Shown here: positions 3,953 through 13,323 of the stretch, one piece after another
Numbering within the stretch: position 1 is the stretch's first letter
How the letters are laid out: each line of letters starts with the position of its first letter
From: Adineta ricciae
Taxonomy: Eukaryota
NCBI GenBank assembly: GCA_905250025.1
Contig: CAJNOJ010000319.1
Coordinates: 97,550 to 110,872, forward strand
DNA: 13,323 nt
Direction of reading: 5' to 3'
The notes under the pieces: generated by a model
Database searches by the model: none
The model's input: the letters and a program-made list of their open reading frames with translations, nothing else
Told to the model about the DNA's origin: nothing
Translations under genes and position numbers: made by a program

Positions 3953-4320
3953 ATCAACAAGTGACATTTACAATGCAAAATGTGATTTTAAATGGAACAG
4001 AAATGTTTTTAAAACGATTTTTATCTGAACATGGCTTTGATCCTTCGATTGTTAATCCACCTGTAATTATTGAAAATCCCATTTATGGAAGTTTAACTCC
4101 GAAATTTTTGAATTTCGCGGCACCGGGAATGATGATATCGGTCATATATTTTTTAGCGCTCTGATATTTGTTGTTGAGAAAAAAAGAAGGTCTTTTAGAA
4201 CGAAGTTGGATCGCTGGTGTAACGATCATCGAAATTATGTTTTCACATATCATTGTCAAGTTTTTTATTCAAATTATTCAAGTTGTACTTTTAATTGTTT
4301 TTGCACATTTCATCTTCGAA
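3953..4320 (+). CDS. ABC transporter exon, TMD core. It contains an in-frame TGA at 4162-4164.
   Basis: Reads (N)QQVTFTMQNVILNGTEMFLKRFLSEHGFDPSIVNPPVIIENPIYGSLTPKFLNFAAPGMMISVIYFLAL*YLLLRKKEGLLERSWIAGVTIIEIMFSHIIVKFFIQIIQVVLLIVFAHFIFE. Conserved ABC-2 blocks lie on both sides of the stop. No GT..AG pair can remove it while keeping frame. Confidence 0.65.
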
Positions 4321-6725: not shown

Positions 6726-7232
6726 AATTATCTGAATTGTCATTGTTTATCAAATGGAACGATGGTTGAAAAAGGTTTATGTGAGAATAATTGTCAAATG
6801 GAATTGATATTTTTCTTTGTAATTTTATTTTTGGTGACATTTTTCGAAACTTTAATGGCAACACCACAATTAATGATTATTTTACGTTCGACAACAGAAT
6901 CTTTGCAATCATTTGGATTGGGTTTAGAAAATTGTCTGATGAAGATTCTTTCTCAAATTCCAACACCGATTTTATTTGGAATTTTGATTGATAAACAATG
7001 TTTATTTTGGTCGAAATCGTCACTATTTAATCATTCAACATCGTGTTTGATTTACAATCAAAAGCAATTTTCATTTACTTTATTTTTGACGATCACTCTT
7101 ATCAAAACGATTTCGTTTTTCTTTATTTTATTTTTATTTTTATTTCATTGGAAAAAACAGAAAAGCCTTTTAATAGAAAATCCTGGAGAGCGAGAACATC
7201 TTTTAAATAATTCATCGACAGATATTCAATAA
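6726..7232 (+). CDS. SLCO/OATP terminal exon (end of Kazal domain, TM10-12).
   Basis: Reads NYLNCHCLSNGTMVEKGLCENNCQ...SFGLGLENCLMKILSQIPTPILFGILIDKQCLFW...* TAA at 7230-7232. An AATAAA overlaps the stop. Total CDS is 1,827 nt (609 aa). Confidence 0.8.
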   Translation, partial: NYLNCHCLSNGTMVEKGLCENNCQMELIFFFVILFLVTFFETLMATPQLMIILRSTTESLQSFGLGLENCLMKILSQIPTPILFGILIDKQCLFWSKSSLFNHSTSCLIYNQKQFSFTLFLTITLIKTISFFFILFLFLFHWKKQKSLLIENPGEREHLLNNSSTDIQ

Positions 7233-7496
7233 AATCATATTTGCGACAAAAAATTTCCTCTACCTTGATTCAATACGCAGCTATTCGATTAATTCAGGTA
7301 AAACTGTCTGATGTGATGATTCTCTTACCAATGAGTAATTAACGATAGTTCGAAGGATTGCTTTTTTTTTGTCAGGGCAAAACGAGTTAAATTATTGCGA
7401 ATGATTGATAAATGAAGAACGAGAAAAATAAATGAGCTGCGTTTAGTCGTTATATAAAACGTTTATTTGTTTGTCGACATTTATTTTCGTTGAATT

Positions 7497-7591
7497 ATGT
7501 CACGACGAAAAGGTAAAAAACAAGTGGAGACCTTGGCTTGGATCACCGATGATGAAGCTGAATTTTGGACGGTTCGATTTCTGATTTTTCA
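7497..7591 (+). CDS. Possible 5' exon of the low-complexity protein gene.
   Basis: Reads ATG MSRRKGKKQVETLAWITDDEAEFWTVRFLIF + ca. Donor GTAAGA at 7592. A 39-nt intron reaches acceptor ag at 7629-7630 and joins in frame to the 7668 ORF. The intron is unusually short, so this is low confidence. Confidence 0.25.
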
Positions 7592-7630
7592 GTAAGAAAT
7601 TTTTTACACGAAGTCTTGTTGTTTTTAGAG

Positions 7631-8207
7631 TATCACACCAAATCGTAAAATTGCCGAACATGAGAAAATGAAAAAATATGCTTCAGACAATGACCTACCT
7701 GACGGTGATCATTTTCGTTTCGATCGTTCGTTAAAAGCAAAAAAACAACAAGAGAATCTACTTGAGAAGGAAAATCAACGTCATTCGGCGGATAATTTCA
7801 ATTCAAAAAAAAATTCATTGGATCAAGTGAAAGAAATCAATGAAGAAAATCAACATTTTATCGACAAGCCAACGATTGAAAGGGAAAAAAACGATAAATT
7901 CTTTTCTCGATTAATTCAAGAATTAAAAGGTTCGTCAATCGATAATGAAGAAAATGTTCAATTGAATCAACAAAATAGTTTCGAAGATTATCAACAAATC
8001 AGTACAAATGACGTCATTGCAAATCAAAATCAACAGCAATCGACAATCTCCAATGAAGAAAACGAAACAAATCTACTTTTCGATCAATTTCATTCGTTTA
8101 TCGATGAAATTACCGAAGAATCGTTTGTGATTACTGGAAGTTTAGATGAAGATACACTTCTTAATCGGAGAAGTAGACGTGCAAAAGGTTTTTCAGCTTT
8201 CAAATAA
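7631..8207 (+). CDS. Low-complexity, N/Q/E/D-rich acidic protein with a basic C-terminal end (RRSRRAKG). Function unknown.
   Basis: Listed ORF 7668..8207 (179 aa) runs to TAA. The upstream in-frame extension to 7631 depends on the putative splice. Composition is coding-like, and AATAAA motifs lie downstream. Confidence 0.55.
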
Positions 8208-8578
8208 ACGAACAAAACTTATCGAGATGAAGAAGTTTTGTCTTTGGAGTACAACTGAGCGTCGTCATTTTATCTCAAAGGAATAATAAATCAATTAATT
8301 TCTTTTCTACGAAATTCAATGATTTCTTCTTTTTGTTCTTTAATGGTGAAAGATTTTCTAAAAAAAATATGTAACAGATTTTCTTTTTAAACAAAATTCA
8401 ATAAAGAATAAATCAAAACATCTGTTCTTTCCAACGTCATTGGAAGATACAAAAGAAAATAACATTTTCTTGTTCATCCTTATGTACCAAAAGTATAAAA
8501 ATCTTCTTTCTTCAAATTCAAATGTCAAATTCAATCAATAAACTTTCATTTCCAATCAAAGTCCAACTGCAACTGAGC

Positions 8579-8586
8579 TGACGTCA
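8579..8586. promoter_or_regulatory. Perfect CRE-like palindrome TGACGTCA.
   Basis: TGACGTCA sits ~270 bp upstream of the ATG of the secreted modular gene. It is the canonical bZIP/CREB site, but it is also expected by chance in the window. Weak. Confidence 0.2.
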
Positions 8587-8768
8587 TTCACTGTAGGCGT
8601 TCGAATACAAATTGAATAGAAAACAAAAACAAAGAATCTAGGGAAAAAGGCTAATGAATCCAATGGAATGAAAGAGAAGAAATTAAATCCATCTGATACA
8701 TTCATTTCGTAACATCAGGAATAATCATTAAGAGTATTTTCGAGAAACAATTTCAAAATAAGATTCCA

Positions 8769-8775
8769 TATAAAA
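8769..8775 (+). promoter_or_regulatory. TATA-like box (TATAAAA) ~85 bp upstream of ATG 8855.
   Basis: The sequence context is ccaTATAAAAtcc. Its position fits a core promoter for the secreted-protein gene. Confidence 0.3.
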
Positions 8776-8854
8776 TCCGCTGAATATTTCATTTCACGAC
8801 ATTTCACATATTTTCTTACTCTGAAAGCATTGTCGTTTACATTGACAACCAAAA

Positions 8855-9374
8855 ATGCGAACGACATTCTTTATACTCCTATCTGCAATTGCGTTTCTCC
8901 AACTCCCATCATGTTCATTTGCGAGTAAGACTTTCTTTTTATACTTTGCTATGTCTTTCAACTTCATCTTTGCCTCTTCTTCTTCTCCTCAAGCTGCCCA
9001 AACGAAAACAGCGGCAGTCGATGCTCATATGGTCGTGAATAAAGGTGGAACTTTGAAAGGAACTATGGTTATTACAAATTGTGATAAAACTTCTCTCACA
9101 CAATCGAAAGAAACTTTAACAAACACATTAACGAAAAAAGTACAAGCTGATGATACCAAAAATTCAAATTCGAAAGTTAGTGTCACGGGTATTCGAGAAT
9201 TAGAACCAGGAACACTTGCTTTCGATTACGAATGCACCGAATCTAAAAATCCCGAAAAAGCTAAAGAAACGTTGAATACCTGTGTGAAACACGATGATGT
9301 GAAGAAAGTTATTGCAAAATCATCATCCAATGTTGCTACAACCCAGGCAAAACAACAAGCAAATGTTCAACAAA
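8855..9374 (+). CDS. Secreted modular protein, exon 1: signal peptide plus Cys domain 1 (degenerate, 3 Cys).
   Basis: Reads MRTTFFILLSAIAFLQLPSCSFA (signal peptide) ... TNCDKTSLTQSKE...YECTES...NTCVKHDD... An in-frame 69-nt GT..AG segment at 8925-8993 (gtaaga...cctcaag) is probably an intron. Donor A|GTAAGT at 9375, phase 1. Confidence 0.75.
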
Positions 9375-9537
9375 GTAAGTGACCTTCTATCTAATAGAAC
9401 TTTCGATTATCTGTAGTGCAAGATTTCTTTCTTGACGTCGTTTACAAAGGAAATGAAGAATTACTTTGGCAATATCATTTTATCTTATTTTATCTATTAT
9501 CCACTTCTTTTCTCTAAATAATATTTTCTATTCGTAG

Positions 9538-10161
9538 CTAAAGCTCAACCGGCTACTCAAGCACCAAAAGCTGCAACAGCAGCCCCGAAATCTTCCCAAA
9601 GCAAACCAACCAAAGCTGTTAATCTCGATTGTGACAAAACACATCAAATCGTCGCTCAAGATGAGAATTCAATTACTGGTGTATTTACTGTTCATTCTTG
9701 TAAAGCATCACGTTTCACTCAGAAACAAAGTCGATGCACATCTCTCGGTAGTAAACTCAGTTCATTAGTCACCGATCGTGTAGCTAAAACTGGTGATAAG
9801 AAACCATGTAGCGTTAATATCGTTAAAGCAAGTGGTACATCAACTTCAACTGAATTTCGGTACACACTTCCATGCGAGAAAAGCCGTCAAAAAGCTGTTA
9901 TTGATTCGCTAAAAGACGCTTGTAAAGACAAAAATTTTGCAGATACAATTACAAATATCAAACAAAAAGAACAAGGAGAATCGAGTTCGTCCGAAAGTGA
10001 TGAAAATAACAAGAGTCCAAGTAAACCAGTTAAAGTTGTGCAAACTGAACAGCCAAAGACAACCACGACAGCCAAACCAACAGAGAAGCCAACGACTGCC
10101 AAGCCCACAGAAAAGCCAACGACTGCCAAGCCTACAGAGAAGCCAACGACAGTTAAGACAA
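9538..10161 (+). CDS. Secreted modular protein, exon 2: Cys domain 2 (6 Cys) plus an S/E-rich stretch and the PT-rich linker.
   Basis: Reads (T)KAQPATQAPKAATAAPKSSQSKPTKAVNLDCDKTHQIVAQDENSITGVFTVHSCKASRFTQKQSRCTSLGSKLSSLVTDRVAKTGDKKPCSVNIVKASGTSTSTEFRYTLPCEKSRQKAVIDSLKDACKDK...EQGESSSSESDENN...TTTTAKPTEKPTTAKPTEKPTTAKPTEKPTTVKT. Phase-1 acceptor and phase-1 donor (A|GTGAGT). Confidence 0.8.
10077..10157 (+). repeat. Three tandem 27-nt coding repeats (PTEKPTTAK).
   Basis: Units ccaacagagaagccaacgactgccaag / cccacagaaaagccaacgactgccaag / cctacagagaagccaacgacagttaag. The antisense ORFs 9887..10184(-) are artefacts of this repeat. Confidence 0.8.
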
Positions 10162-10294
10162 GTGAGTCGAATTTTGCCCTTCATTCACAAGTATACTTTC
10201 TTTTCGTCACTCAAAATGAATGCACATATGTGTGGTGATGACAGAGACATGTAGAACAAAAATAAGGATTCAGTACAATCATGTACAATTTTAG

Positions 10295-10674
10295 CTCCAC
10301 GCAAAACCACCAAGGCCGGTGCAACGAAGAAACCACCAGCCACAACACGTAAAGTTGAAGTGAAGAACTGCGATGACCATGACTACAACGACAAAGACCA
10401 AGTCTTGACCGGTAAAATCGTTGTTCAAGACTGTCCATGTGAGAAGCGATTCGCTAACAATGCATCACGTCTTGCTGCCGTTTCATCAACTGTCTGCACA
10501 CAACTCCGAAACTACTTCCAACAACTGTATGGAACAAAGATCAACTACCCATGCAGTCTCAAAGTAGTCGCAGGAAACAAAACGCACACCGTGTTTGCAT
10601 ACACCGTTAACGTACCACAATCAGAACAGAGCAAAGCCAAAGCGGCAGCCAAGAAGGCCTGTCAAGATGATCAA
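10295..10674 (+). CDS. Secreted modular protein, exon 3: Cys domain 3 (6 Cys).
   Basis: Reads (T)PRKTTKAGATKKPPATTRKVEVKNCDDHDYNDKDQVLTGKIVVQDCPCEKRFANNASRLAAVSSTVCTQLRNYFQQLYGTKINYPCSLKVVAGNKTHTVFAYTVNVPQSEQSKAKAAAKKACQDDQ. It is paralogous to domain 2: NCD...LTG..V..C, PCS..V...T..F.YT, ACxDD. Donor GTAAGT, phase 0. Confidence 0.8.
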
Positions 10675-10772
10675 GTAAGTGAAAGCGGCCGTGATAGAAG
10701 TTACACATGGCCGCAAAGCAGACACTCGAGAAAAAGAGAAACGAGTGTTGAGGAATGTTTTACTTATTCTAG

Positions 10773-10995
10773 GTGAAAAAAGTTATCGAACAAGAGTCGC
10801 TCAAACGCGACGGCGATGACGATAGTGATAGTAGCAGTTCGGAAGAAACCACACGCGCGCAAGCCAAGCCTGTAACGACCCAAAAGGCTACTGAGAAGCC
10901 GACGGAAAAGCCAACAACTGCCAAGCCCACAGAGAAGCCGACGGAAAAGCCAACTACTTCCAAGCCCACAGAGAAGCCGACAACAGTTAAGACAA
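10773..10995 (+). CDS. Secreted modular protein, exon 4: acidic/Ser stretch plus PT-rich linker 2.
   Basis: Reads VKKVIEQESLKRDGDDDSDSSSSEETTRAQAKPVTTQKATEKPTEKPTTAKPTEKPTEKPTTSKPTEKPTTVKT. Donor A|GTGAGTCGAATTTTG is identical to the donor after linker 1. Phase 1. Confidence 0.8.
10887..10994 (+). repeat. Tandem ~39-nt coding repeats (PTEKPTEKPTTAK/SK).
   Basis: acagagaagccgacggaaaagccaac(a/t)act(g/t)ccaagccc is repeated. The antisense ORF 10769..11047(-) is an artefact. Confidence 0.75.
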
Positions 10996-11055
10996 GTGAG
11001 TCGAATTTTGTTTCGTCTTTATAGGTGTCATTTTTCTCTTCACTCAAAATGAATA

Positions 11056-13183
11056 CCTAGAGTAGTGTGAAAGATTGTAGAATCAATCTCTTCCTTCGCT
11101 TTTTCTTGGCTTTTGAAACGTCACTGATGTTTTTTCGTTCTACATTTTACACTATTACAACAATTCAAAGATGTTCTTCCATATTTTATTCGAATAAAAT
11201 ATGAAAGAATATCTATGAATCGATCCCTTTTCCGAGAGAAAGGGTTATACAGCGGTTAACTCCTGGGCTCAAAAAGCTTAAAGTTTGTCTCTCTGTCTGT
11301 CCTATCCAATCAGAAAGCAGCATTTGTTAAATCATTGAAATTTACGGATGGCATCCAAAAACTGAGTACTAGTAAGGTAATCTGGGTCGAGGAACTCAAA
11401 TTCCTTGTTAGTTTTTCCTTCACTCACTAAGATCCATCTTCTTCCTTTCTCTTTCTGAAGCAGATGTTTTTCTGAATCTTTTCTAAAATCTCGTATAGAA
11501 GGTAGTGGATGAATCGCTATTTTTGGGTATGATGTGTGCGAGATAGCGGTTTTGGTCGTTGCACCAAAAAGATTTAGCATATCTTACATTATCATATTTG
11601 CCTTGTGAGCTACGATACGTGACGTCTTTTGATAGAATTTTACGGGAAATAGATCCCCTAAAGAGTATACTCGTCAGTGTAATTGTATCTTATTATCCAT
11701 AATGATAACGGCTAGCGGCGAGTGACTGACCGGAGTTTGGCCTACGAATGACTAACCATTAAGCGGTGGGAGTTTAGTAAACATAGCTAGTACTTGAAAA
11801 ATATTCTCTGACAAATGGGTGATTGATTCGGTTCATGAAAAAAGAAGAGTTTTTGTCTTGTATTGACTCTCGTGTGGGACACAACGCCATGATCTAGCTC
11901 GGGAACAGTAGTAACCGCAGTGTCCTATTTGTTCTTCAATGAATCGGAATATGTTCAACAGTAGACCAGTTCTTTCAATAAAGGGTCGGCGAATCTAGGG
12001 TGAGGGTTACTTGTTGTACTAGTGCAAAATGTACAACGAAAAAACATCAATGACATTTTAAAAAATCAAGAAACAACGAAGGGAGAAATTGATTGTATAA
12101 TTTTTTCCCACCACTGTATATGACAATAGATAAAACTAACGTACTAGAGAGTAATCGTTGACGATTAAGAAATACTGTATCGAGCGTTTCATGCGTTGAA
12201 GAACTAAAGCAGACAGAGAGATCAATATTCTACAAACTTCTTCGTTTTCGAGCCCCTATTTTTCAGCCATGCATTGCAACTAACGATAGTTTCCATCGCA
12301 TTTCTTGGTAGTAAAGAGAGAAATATCAATGTTGGGCGAGGCGGTTACGGCGGGGAACTTTACAGATCAATACTAGCTACACAATCAAAGCTAGTTTTTA
12401 CATCATTTAAAACTATGAAAACTGTTTCTTTCACAAAAGTTAATTGTCGCCTTCAGAAGAGCGCTCATCAAACTCATTTTCATCATCGCGATACTCTTTA
12501 CATCCTGTTCTTCATATTCACTCAGCCATTCTCTATCACCATCGGATACACACACAACCGCATCTAAACCCTGAGCTTTATTTTCAACTAAAGCGTTAAT
12601 AACGCAGCTTCCATTTACCCATACAAATACCCTCTTCTATGTGCAAAAGCATCTTCAAAGACTTACTAACTCTAAAAATCTTTTGCCTAACTCGTGCAAC
12701 TTCACCGATGTCTACTATTCAGACCCGCCGACTTAACCCACTGCCTAAGCCAACAGCATGTAAAGTTTCCTCAATCCGACACATGCAGAAACTGAATGTG
12801 TACGGCATGAACGAAAACTTTTCGCTTCATGTTAAAAATATCCTAAAGCGATCAGCGTACAGGGAGCTTTCGCAGCACATTCTCCAACTCTTTTCAAAAG
12901 CTATAATCCTGTGCGTCAAGCCAAGATTCCCTCTAACGAATCTCAGGTTCAATTATACCGCCGCAACCTATCGATTGGCCCCACATCCGCCTAACACCGT
13001 ACCAAGGGAATTTACGTTACCGCAGACACTATCGCACACAGTGAGAAGCGACCCAATCAAGAACATTCCCTCCACATAAGTCATAGTACGCTAACGACAA
13101 AAGCACACATTACCGATATAATATTCTATCTCAGAAGCCCTACAGCGACGCACTTTCTAAGAGCCATCTACTTTTCTGCCTTT
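11056..13183. mobile_element. ~2.1 kb compositionally distinct insertion inside the intron of the newest module. Possibly a degenerate transposable element or other foreign-derived DNA.
   Basis: The equivalent intron of the older module (10162-10294) is ~130 nt. Here the homologous flanks (cactcaaaatgaat ... atcaCATACAATTcTAG) are separated by ~2.1 kb. That stretch has higher GC, strong A+C strand skew from 12400-13180, and no convincing spliced gene. It contains minus ORF 11332..11580 and a start-less, protein-like minus frame at ~12385-12650. Confidence 0.3.
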
Positions 13184-13205
13184 CACCTATCACATACAAT
13201 TCTAG

Positions 13206-13323
13206 CTCCACGCAAAACCACCAAGGCCGGTGCAACGAAGAAACCACCAGCCACAACACGTAAAGTTGAAGTGAAGAACTGCGATGACCATGACTACAAC
13301 GACAAAGACCAAGTCTTGACCGG
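13206..13323 (+). CDS. Secreted modular protein, exon 5 (partial): start of a further copy of Cys domain 3.
   Basis: The 118 nt from the acceptor ag to the window end are 100% identical to 10295-10412. The same phase-1 junction continues the reading frame. Confidence 0.6.

What the first reader, a model, noticed from the sequence alone, without database searches (positions are those of the whole stretch)
11056..13183. 2.1 kb foreign-looking block in the intron of the newest module
The introns after linker 1 and after linker 2 share their first ~15 nt (GTGAGTCGAATTTTG), the motif CACTCAAAATGAAT, and their last ~17 nt. However, the second intron is ~2.2 kb rather than ~130 nt. The extra DNA differs sharply in composition from the rest of this AT-rich window. 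It is GC-richer from 11600-12060 and A+C-rich on the plus strand from 12400-13180. It carries an 82-aa minus-strand ORF at 11332..11580 (…GRRWILVSEGKTNKEFEFLDPDYLTSTQFLDAIRKFQ). It also carries a ~88-codon protein-like minus frame without a start at ~12385-12650 (…RVFVWVNGSCVINALVENKAQGLDAVVCVSDGDREWLSEYEEQDVKSIAMMKMSLMSALLKA…). Both ends have CTAG with weakly inverted similarity (ctagagtagtgtgaaag vs the reverse complement ctagaattgtatgtgataggtgaaag). This fits a decayed transposon or another captured fragment. It may also have been part of the unit that was duplicated.
Basis: partly seen in the sequence, partly recalled or inferred. Interest (0 to 1): 0.6.

Follow-up and report, generated by a model that had tools for sequence, protein, structure and literature searches.

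The report
Long transposon-bearing intron in repeated module
The 2.1 kb block is ordinary non-coding spacer/intron DNA of a rotifer (Adineta ricciae) secreted-protein gene: its left half looks like a decayed inverted-repeat transposon, and the whole block belongs to a 2.9 kb repeated unit and is not foreign DNA.

Summary
The window is Adineta ricciae (bdelloid rotifer) DNA. The block sits in a 2,210-nt GT..AG, phase-1 intron (10996-13205) between a Cys-rich "B" module plus mucin-like linker and the start of a second B module. The species' median intron is 55 nt. The junction is real: two contigs end in exact 127-nt (k-mer) overlaps, the signature of a collapsed tandem repeat (periods 2,911 and 3,097). 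The same block lies at the same place in the diverged homologous copy L002, so it predates the haplotype split and is part of the repeated unit.

No frame shows Pfam, protein, Rfam, tRNA, plasmid or phage similarity. The claimed CTAG-end inverted similarity is noise.

What is real is a 1,057-nt element (11060-12116). It has 104-nt terminal inverted repeats (83% complementary), TA flanks and a TA|CAGTGG terminus, which suggests a non-autonomous Tc1/mariner-like transposon. Copy number could not be tested. The right half (12119-13188) is anonymous, C-rich, fast-diverging DNA.

One thing is unexplained: divergence between homologs rises from 6.5% (left) to 29% (right). Low interest.

The parts
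10295..10995 (+). B module of the secreted modular gene. Exons are 10295-10668 and 10773-10995 (mucin-like TEKPTT linker at the end), with a 104-nt internal intron at 10669-10772.
   Evidence: The spliced translation matches A. ricciae protein P0001 at 100%. Differences from L002 fall on codon positions 1/2/3 as 1/3/24 and 0/0/6, indicating purifying selection.
10996..13205 (+). Intron 2 / inter-module spacer: 2,210 nt, GTGAGT...CTAG, phase 1. It contains the whole block.
   Evidence: The sequence shows it directly. The gene model P0010 on L002 splices the equivalent intron. The models P0001 and P0009 instead read through to a stop at 11022-11024.
10996..11057 (+). 5' part of the intron, homologous to the start of intron 1. 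It includes the 15-nt splice-donor block and TCACTCAAAATGAAT.
   Evidence: (D1, D6). It is 93% identical to L002.
11060..12116 (.). 1,057-nt element bounded by terminal inverted repeats and flanked by TA (11058-11059 and 12117-12118). It has no coding capacity. Candidate decayed non-autonomous Tc1/mariner-like or foldback-like transposon.
   Evidence: (I1). The right terminus read inward is TA|CAGTGGTGGGAAAAAATTATAC and the left is TA|GAGTAGTGTGAAAGATTGTAG.
11060..11163 (+). Left terminal inverted repeat (104 nt).
   Evidence: It matches the right arm at 86/104 and the L002 left arm at 100/104.
12011..12116 (-). Right terminal inverted repeat (106 nt).
   Evidence: It is only 82% identical to its L002 counterpart.
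11163..11220 (.). 58-nt near-perfect palindrome abutting the left TIR. Its centre, TTTATTCGAATAAA, gives AATAAA on both strands.
   Evidence: I2. The RNA fold is -23.2 kcal/mol with z = -6.2. Positions 11164-11220 are 57/57 identical in L002. Rfam gives only sub-threshold miRNA-like hits (23 bits against a gathering score of 88).
12119..13188 (+). Anonymous right half: C-rich and G-poor on the plus strand (C 229 against G 104 over 12401-13188). It has no repeats, no TIR or TSD and no homology, and it is the fastest-diverging part of the unit.
   Evidence: Identity to L002 is 65-76%, with ts:tv 112:120.
13189..13205 (+). 3' end of the intron, 14/17 identical to the 3' end of intron 1. This is the junction of the repeat unit.
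   Evidence: (D2).
13206..13323 (+). Start of the second B-module exon, identical to 10295-10412.
   Evidence: Contig L001 stops 6 nt after the window, after exactly 127 nt of identity with the internal copy.
11332..11580 (-). It is a chance ORF, not a gene.
   Evidence: Mismatches by codon position are 8/3/4. In L002 it is frame-shifted at 11540 and has an earlier stop. No Pfam or protein hit. Its length is expected by chance.
12406..12636 (-). Chance.
   Evidence: Mismatches by codon position are 21/17/19 and it is not open in L002. No homologs.
12603..13076 (+). 158-codon stop-free plus frame. It is mildly longer than composition predicts but is not conserved as coding.
   Evidence: 1.6% of dinucleotide shuffles reach 158 codons. 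Mismatches by codon position are 49/44/44 and the frame is fragmented in L002. No homologs.

Best explanation
The block is the non-coding body of an unusually long intron, or inter-module spacer, inside a roughly 2.9-kb unit. That unit (B-module exons, linker and spacer) is tandemly repeated in an Adineta ricciae gene for a secreted, Cys-rich, mucin-linked modular protein.

It is native rotifer DNA. It was already present before the two homologous haplotypes diverged, and it was copied along with the module when the unit duplicated by unequal recombination or replication slippage. The exons were later kept similar by gene conversion.

The left half (11060-12116) is most likely a decayed non-autonomous cut-and-paste transposon of the Tc1/mariner type that inserted at a TA. 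The right half (12119-13188) is anonymous, fast-evolving sequence that lay downstream of the linker exon when the unit was duplicated. Nothing in the block encodes protein.

Shown: the anatomy, the absence of homology, the presence in the homolog and the repeat topology. Inferred: transposon origin (copy number not testable here), splicing across the spacer, and the duplication mechanism.
For: ORGANISM AND GENE. A 100% match to A. ricciae P0001 on contig CAJNOR010003236.1, with relatives in A. steineri and Rotaria.

INTRON. GT..AG, phase 1 at both ends, with the donor region conserved with intron 1. The P0010 model splices it.

TANDEM UNIT. The period is 2,911. L001 ends after exactly 127 nt shared with 10292-10418, and the first and last 127 nt of L002 are identical. 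A Logan unitig spans 11853-13232 and stops 30 nt (k-1) into the shared exon.

ANCESTRAL, NOT A RECENT INSERTION. L002 is collinear across the whole unit, at 86.7% and then 72% identity. Third-codon-position divergence of 19% fits A. ricciae homologs (Ks 0.135), not ohnologs (Ks 1.27) (PMC5916493).

NON-CODING AND NOT FOREIGN..

TIR ELEMENT. The arms are 104 nt at 83% identity. The alignment score is 64 against a shuffle maximum of 15.5. TA lies on both flanks in both haplotypes, with a CAGTGG terminus. TA target duplication is the Tc1/mariner hallmark (PMC2874221).

TRANSPOSONS DO LAND HERE. L002 carries an extra ~176-nt insertion (between 1738 and 1914) with inverted ends CCCAGGT/ACCTGGG at a TA/ATAT site that is empty in the window.

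LONG SPACERS AND REPEATED B MODULES ARE A FAMILY TRAIT. In A. steineri, B-B has a period of 1,587 and introns of 785-870 nt. The module is 99.2% identical between copies, while the spacers are 79% identical or unalignable.
Against: Copy number of the TIR element could not be measured. Two TIR patterns gave no hit in JGI metagenome contigs, and no eukaryotic genome search is available, so mobility is unproven.

The left terminus (GAGTAG) is degenerate compared with CAGTGG. TA flanks are weak evidence in AT-rich DNA. At 1,057 nt the element is larger than a classical MITE.

The reference gene models P0001 and P0009 terminate by read-through at 11022-11024 rather than splicing, so use of the long intron is unverified.

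The left 590 nt of the intron diverge by only 6.5% between homologs, against 19% at third codon positions (Fisher p = 8e-6). A purely junk reading does not predict this.
Confidence: 0.65

Rival explanations
1. The left ~590 nt of the intron (10996-11583), comprising the left TIR, the palindrome and flanking sequence, is a functional non-coding element under purifying selection. It could be an alternative 3' end (read-through stop at 11022 plus the AATAAA in the palindrome) that sets how many modules the protein carries. It could also be a hairpin-RNA/siRNA source formed by the 104-bp TIR stem and the 27-bp palindrome. This can coexist with a transposon origin.
For: Divergence from the homolog is 38/586 (6.5%), against 30/159 at third codon positions (p = 8e-6). 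TIR-L plus the palindrome show 4/163 (p = 8e-7). The palindrome is 57/57 identical and folds at z = -6.2. The annotated models P0001 and P0009 end by read-through just upstream. The TIRs form a ~105-bp stem in the predicted fold.
Against: The right TIR is not conserved (82%), so the long stem is not under selection. Other genes in the window have AATAAA within ~0-30 nt of the stop, whereas here it lies 170 nt downstream (read from the sequence). Only two sequences are compared, and a ~600-nt inter-homolog gene-conversion tract would give the same pattern. Rfam hits are far below threshold. No expression data are available.
Confidence: 0.15
2. The 104-nt inverted repeat is not a mobile element. 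It is a local inverted duplication, for example from break repair or template switching, that arose once in this spacer.
For: No second copy was found anywhere that could be searched. There is no transposase remnant. The left terminus is not CAGTG. A perfect-centre palindrome sits next to one arm, and bdelloids undergo frequent double-strand-break repair (general knowledge).
Against: Both ends sit exactly at TA, with a Tc1-like CAGTGG terminus, in both haplotypes. The arm length and element size fit long-TIR Tc1/Tc3-type derivatives. An undoubted small TIR insertion at a TA/ATAT site lies 1 kb away in L002, so such elements are active in this lineage.
Confidence: 0.15
3. The block is foreign DNA captured into the intron, by horizontal transfer from bacteria, fungi or plants, or as an organellar fragment.
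For: Bdelloids carry unusually many horizontally acquired genes (PMC4632278, listed). The block's GC content and strand skew differ from the AT-rich genes upstream.
Against: There is no hit in Pfam (six frames), in 5.8 billion proteins (two frames), in plasmids or phages (DNA), or in Rfam, and no tRNA. The flanking B-module exons have the same or higher GC. The block is shared with the homolog and evolves like non-coding DNA.
Confidence: 0.03
4. The block-to-B-exon junction is an assembly artefact: a chimeric join or mis-resolved repeat. Under this reading the block is really the gene's 3' flank, not lying between two modules.
For: The contig ends exactly one k-mer (127 nt) into the repeated exon, so nothing beyond is resolved. 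The reference gene models stop before the block.
Against: The same junction is found independently in the diverged homolog contig L002 (its own sequence, period 3,097) and in a k=31 Logan unitig from run ERR2135445. The junction carries its own 17-nt intron end, which differs from intron 1 at 3 positions.
Confidence: 0.04

Closest known systems
Non-autonomous Tc1/mariner-superfamily elements (Stowaway-like MITEs; long-TIR Tc3-type derivatives)
   Same: Terminal inverted repeats, TA on both flanks, a 5'-CAGTG-type terminus at one end, no transposase ORF and an intronic location (the TA target rule is from PMC2874221). My recollection that the Tc3 TIR begins CAGTGTGGGAAAG is a lead from memory and was not tested.
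   Different: At 1,057 nt it is twice the usual MITE upper size (80-500 bp; PMC2874221). The left terminus is degenerate. No other copies and no autonomous partner could be shown. The arms are already 17% diverged.
Foldback-type elements / long hairpin (hpRNA) loci
   Same: Long inverted arms (about 10% of the element each) plus an internal palindrome. The predicted RNA forms a ~105-bp stem.
   Different: Foldback elements typically have arms built of subrepeats that make up most of the element. Here the arms are unique sequence and 80% of the element is loop. There is no small-RNA evidence.
The minority class of long introns in bdelloid genes (Nowell et al. 2018, PMC5916493)
   Same: A. ricciae introns are mostly 30-100 nt (median 55), with a minority of much longer ones. 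This is one of the long ones, with canonical splice sites.
   Different: This one is also the spacer of a tandem repeat, and splicing across it is unverified.
Tandemly repeated modules in mucin-like secreted-protein genes evolving in concert
   Same: The repeat unit consists of module exon(s), a Pro/Thr/Lys-rich linker and a phase-1 intron. The exons are near-identical and the spacers divergent, both here and in A. steineri.
   Different: The unit carries 2.1 kb of non-coding DNA, three times its coding content. Copy number is unresolved.

Membership tests
Tc1/mariner-type non-autonomous DNA transposon | Terminal inverted repeats at both ends | tested here: met
   The arms are 11060-11163 and 12011-12116, matching at 86/104. 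The alignment score is 64 against a shuffle maximum of 15.5. They are also present in L002.
Tc1/mariner-type non-autonomous DNA transposon | TA target-site duplication | tested here: met
   TA lies at 11058-11059 and 12117-12118 in the window and at the equivalent sites in L002. This is weak evidence, because TA is common in this AT-rich DNA and the boundaries have 2-3 nt of freedom.
Tc1/mariner-type non-autonomous DNA transposon | Multiple dispersed copies in the host genome, or polymorphic presence/absence | not testable with these tools
   No eukaryotic genome collection can be searched by DNA. There are no extra copies in the window, L001, L003 or L004. Two metagenome scans returned nothing. 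The element is present in both haplotypes, so no empty site is available.
Tc1/mariner-type non-autonomous DNA transposon | TIRs matching those of an autonomous, transposase-encoding partner | not testable with these tools
   There is no transposase remnant inside the element, as expected for a non-autonomous copy. The partner could not be searched for.
MITE (strict sense) | Short length (80-500 bp; PMC2874221) | tested here: not met
   The element is 1,057 nt.
Spliceosomal intron | GT..AG boundaries with compatible phase joining two coding exons | tested here: met
   GTGAGT at 10996 and AG at 13204-13205, phase 1 on both sides. The same holds in L002, where the P0010 model splices it.
Spliceosomal intron | Transcript evidence of removal | not testable with these tools
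   No RNA-seq access. The models P0001 and P0009 read through to a stop at 11022-11024.
Horizontally acquired / organellar DNA | Sequence similarity to non-metazoan or organellar genes | tested here: not met
   No Pfam, protein, tRNA, Rfam, plasmid or phage match. Bacterial chromosomes were not searched at the DNA level.
Protein-coding gene nested on the minus strand | Open frame conserved in the homolog with third-position bias of substitutions | tested here: not met
   For ORF83, mismatches by codon position are 8/3/4, and it is frame-shifted and truncated in L002. For ORF77 they are 21/17/19. Both lengths are expected by chance.
miRNA / hairpin RNA gene | Stable hairpin matching a curated family or backed by small-RNA reads | tested here: inconclusive
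   The hairpin is stable (z = -6.2) and 100% conserved in the homolog. The Rfam scores of 23 and 22 bits fall far below the gathering thresholds of 88 and 135. There are no small-RNA data.

The most novel reading that the evidence does not exclude
The strongly conserved left ~590 nt of the spacer is a functional RNA-level element, exapted from a transposon and carried in every repeat unit. It comprises the left TIR, a palindrome identical to the homolog at all 57 compared positions with AATAAA on both strands, and flanking sequence. It could be an intronic polyadenylation switch that decides how many B modules the secreted protein contains, or a hairpin that feeds the expanded bdelloid RNAi machinery.
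Probability: 0.1. Interest if true: 0.45.

Novelty: new member of a known kind. Interest (0 to 1): 0.2.

Why it matters
This mostly matters as a clean-up. A block that looks foreign in a lineage famous for horizontal gene transfer turns out to be native non-coding DNA, so it should not be counted as HGT or as a gene.

It also documents three points:
- A. ricciae assemblies collapse a ~2.9-3.1 kb tandem repeat in this secreted-protein gene, so the true module number and gene model are unknown.
- B modules have been tandemly repeated and homogenised independently in two Adineta species, while their spacers diverge.
- Small TIR elements have inserted into this spacer in one haplotype but not the other. 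This gives usable presence/absence markers for questions about transposon activity and inter-homolog exchange in bdelloids.

None of this opens a major question.

Tried and rejected
1. Protein remnants. Pfam on the eight longest stop-free segments gave only E > 0.03 noise. Pfam on all six full frames gave 0 hits (one search failed on stop codons). The pseudo-proteins of minus frame 2 and plus frame 0 gave 0 hits at E <= 1 against 5.8 billion proteins. The second negative is weakened because the Logan-called ORF146 is evidently not in that database.

2. Foreign DNA. blastn against plasmids and phages gave no match. There are no tRNAs and Rfam is only sub-threshold.

3. Decayed copy of the gene's own modules or linkers. 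blastn and tblastx of both halves against the rest of the window and the A. steineri locus gave nothing below E = 0.03.

4. TIR or TSD for the whole block or for the right half. None was found.

5. 'Empty site' homology between intron 1's middle and the sequence flanking the TIR element. Not significant.

6. Copy number. Two TIR patterns in metagenome contigs gave 0 hits and exhausted the scans. An exact look-up of ORF83 found nothing. ORF146 returned only one Logan unitig of the same locus.

7. Reaching the longer (104-111 kb) A. ricciae contigs through P0009. It is not on record.

8. Arkhipova & Meselson 2005 (PMC1188004), sought for bdelloid TIR sequences. Not held.

9. The Rotaria locus L005 was fetched but could not be read in Python. 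Only its gene span was used.
Full report
WHERE THE WINDOW COMES FROM. The spliced translation of the gene starting at 8855 matches the Adineta ricciae protein P0001 at 100% identity. P0001 is encoded on contig CAJNOR010003236.1 of assembly GCA_905250095.1, fetched as L001. Neighbouring genes are a GPCR, an ABC transporter and an OATP transporter, so this is ordinary bdelloid-rotifer nuclear DNA. From 4180 onward the window is identical to L001, and L001 ends 6 nt after the window. The gene encodes a signal peptide followed by Cys-containing modules of types A, C and B. The modules are separated by TEKPTT-type mucin-like linkers and phase-1 introns. Relatives occur in A. steineri and Rotaria.

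CHECKING THE OBSERVATION. Intron 1 (10162-10294) is 133 nt and intron 2 (10996-13205) is 2,210 nt. They share their first 15 nt, the motif TCACTCAAAATGAAT, and 14 of their last 17 nt. The exon after intron 2 (13206-13323) is identical to 10295-10412, giving a period of 2,911. The composition claims hold, but the B-module exons next to the block are as GC-rich (0.43-0.48) as the block itself. The 82-aa ORF exists. The other minus frame is 77 codons, not 88. A. ricciae introns have a median of 55 nt and a mean of 104 nt, with a minority class of long ones (PMC5916493). A 2.2-kb intron is therefore unusual but not unprecedented.

IS THE JUNCTION REAL? L001 ends after exactly 127 nt that are identical to 10292-10418. 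A second contig, L002 (CAJNOR010011093.1, 3,224 nt), has identical first and last 127 nt. This is the de Bruijn-graph signature of a repeat whose copies were collapsed. L002 is a single 3,097-nt unit closed on itself. A k=31 Logan unitig from run ERR2135445 covers 11853-13232 and stops 30 nt into the shared exon. Three independent assemblies, on two diverged haplotypes, therefore join the end of the block to the start of a B exon. The '100% identity' of the second exon is partly by construction, because it is the shared k-mer. The number of units is unknown.

THE BLOCK IS ANCESTRAL AND BELONGS TO THE UNIT. L002 aligns collinearly with 10279-13316. Its exons differ from the window mainly at third codon positions (1/3/24 and 0/0/6), which is 19% at that position. 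This fits A. ricciae homologs (mean Ks 0.135) and not ohnologs (Ks 1.27). L002 contains the whole block at the same place, so the block predates the split of the two haplotypes and is part of the repeated unit in both.

NOTHING CODES AND NOTHING IS FOREIGN. No frame of the block hits Pfam. Pseudo-proteins of the two frames holding the longest open runs find nothing among 5.8 billion proteins. There are no tRNAs, and only sub-threshold Rfam hits that reflect a hairpin shape. There is no DNA match in plasmids or phages. The two minus-strand frames show no third-position bias (8/3/4 and 21/17/19) and are frame-shifted or truncated in L002. Their lengths are expected by chance: 39% of shuffles reach 83 codons. 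A 158-codon plus-strand run (12603-13076) is mildly long (1.6% of dinucleotide shuffles), but it is fragmented in L002 and has no periodicity. The block is also not a decayed copy of the gene's own modules.

WHAT STRUCTURE IS THERE. The claimed inverted similarity of the CTAG ends is noise, and the right CTAG is simply the splice acceptor. The real feature is an inverted repeat of 104-106 nt, 11060-11163 against 12011-12116. It matches at 86/104 and scores 64 against a shuffle maximum of 15.5. It bounds a 1,057-nt element flanked by TA on both sides in both haplotypes. The right terminus reads TA|CAGTGGTGGGAAAAAATTATAC and the left reads TA|GAGTAGTGTGAAAGATTGTAG. TA duplication is the Tc1/mariner hallmark (PMC2874221). 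The CAGTG terminus is typical of Tc1-like elements, but that statement rests on my own knowledge and was not tested. A 58-nt palindrome (11163-11220) abuts the left arm. The most likely reading is a decayed non-autonomous Tc1/mariner-like element. Dispersed copies, which are the defining property, could not be tested. The right half (12119-13188) has no repeats, termini or homology. In both haplotypes it is C-rich and G-poor.

HOW THE ARRANGEMENT AROSE (INFERENCE). The similarities between introns 1 and 2 are confined to the flanks of homologous exons: 58 nt after the linker and 17 nt before the B exon. The 57-nt middle of intron 1 has no counterpart beside the TIR element. The data therefore do not support 'a 130-nt intron that received a 2.1-kb insertion'. 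A simpler model is that a segment running from 17 nt upstream of the B exon to position 13188 was tandemly duplicated. Whatever lay downstream of the linker exon (the TIR element plus anonymous sequence) was carried along, and the exons were later homogenised. A. steineri supports this as a family habit. Its ortholog has two B modules with a period of 1,587 and spacers of 785-870 nt. The modules are 99.2% identical over 711 nt, while the spacers are 79% identical or unalignable. Those spacers share no sequence with the A. ricciae block. The Rotaria ortholog spans only 2,477 nt for 659 aa, so it has no long spacers.

AN UNEXPLAINED GRADIENT. Divergence between the window and L002 is 6.5% over 10996-11583 and only 4/163 over the left TIR plus palindrome. 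It is 14.7% over 11584-12220 and 28.9% over 12221-13188, reaching 40% just before the exon. It then drops abruptly to about 9% in the exon. Compared with third codon positions (19%), the left part is significantly conserved (p = 8e-6) and the right part is faster (p = 0.009). The right TIR diverged by 18% while the left diverged by 4%, so the long stem itself is not being preserved. Two explanations are possible. One is constraint on the left part, for example an alternative 3' end, since the annotated models stop by read-through at 11022-11024 and the palindrome offers AATAAA on both strands. The other is a ~600-nt inter-homolog conversion tract. Two sequences cannot tell these apart.

VERDICT. 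The transposon idea survives for the left half, on different evidence. The statement that the block is 'part of the duplicated unit' is confirmed. This is an ordinary, if long, transposon-bearing spacer in a tandemly repeated module and is of low interest. A small residual possibility remains that its conserved left end has an RNA-level function.

Noticed in passing
window 4141-4179 (ABC transporter gene): This is the only place where the window differs from contig L001. It shows one G/A mismatch at 4141, a 13-nt segment (GATTGGTTTAACA) missing after 4157, and one extra A at 4179. The net change is -12 nt, so a short stretch of the ABC2 membrane domain is read in another frame. The window may come from a different assembly or haplotig than L001. 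P0001 is recorded on two contigs of 16 kb and 111 kb.
   Followed up: partly
L002 1738-1914 (empty site at window 11950/11951): The homologous copy carries an extra ~176-nt GC-rich insertion with inverted ends CCCAGGT/ACCTGGG. It also has subterminal 13-nt inverted repeats (AGTCGGTTCCGGC/GCCGGAACCGACT) and a duplicated TA or ATAT. This is a MITE-like insertion that is polymorphic between haplotypes.
   Followed up: partly
L002 1340-1386; window 12321-12380: There are further haplotype-specific indels inside the block. L002 has a 47-nt insertion after window position 11600. The window has a ~60-nt GC-rich stretch (GGGCGAGGCGGTTACGGCGGGGAAC...) that is absent from L002.
   Followed up: no
L003 (A. 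steineri CAJNOE010000043.1) 7005-10110: This is an independent tandem B-B arrangement. 7744-8454 and 9332-10041 are 99.2% identical. The preceding long introns are 79% identical over their 5' ~530-550 nt and unalignable over the last ~200-270 nt. Identity resumes 46 nt upstream of the exon. The polarity is the same as the divergence gradient seen between the A. ricciae homologs.
   Followed up: partly
window 10996-13205 against L002: Homolog divergence rises monotonically along the spacer (6.5%, then 15%, then 29-40%) and resets sharply at the B-exon acceptor. ts:tv falls from about 1.5-2.4 to about 0.9 in the right part.
   Followed up: partly
window 11022-11024; P0001, P0009: The deposited gene models end by reading through the donor site of intron 2 (…TVKTSESNFVSSL*), even on the longer contigs. 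The partial model P0010 on L002 splices linker to B instead. The true 3' structure and module number of this gene are unresolved.
   Followed up: no
window 10685-10714 (intron inside the B module): A short GC-rich hairpin, GCGGCC...GGCCGC, is present in the window but disrupted in L002 (GTCGCC...GACTGC). It is probably chance.
   Followed up: no
L003 10626-12772: In A. steineri a ~2.1-kb gap separates the annotated end of the modular gene from a further C-type module that is annotated as a separate 267-aa gene (96% identical to the last module). The array may continue across long spacers there too, and the gene may be split by the annotation.
   Followed up: no
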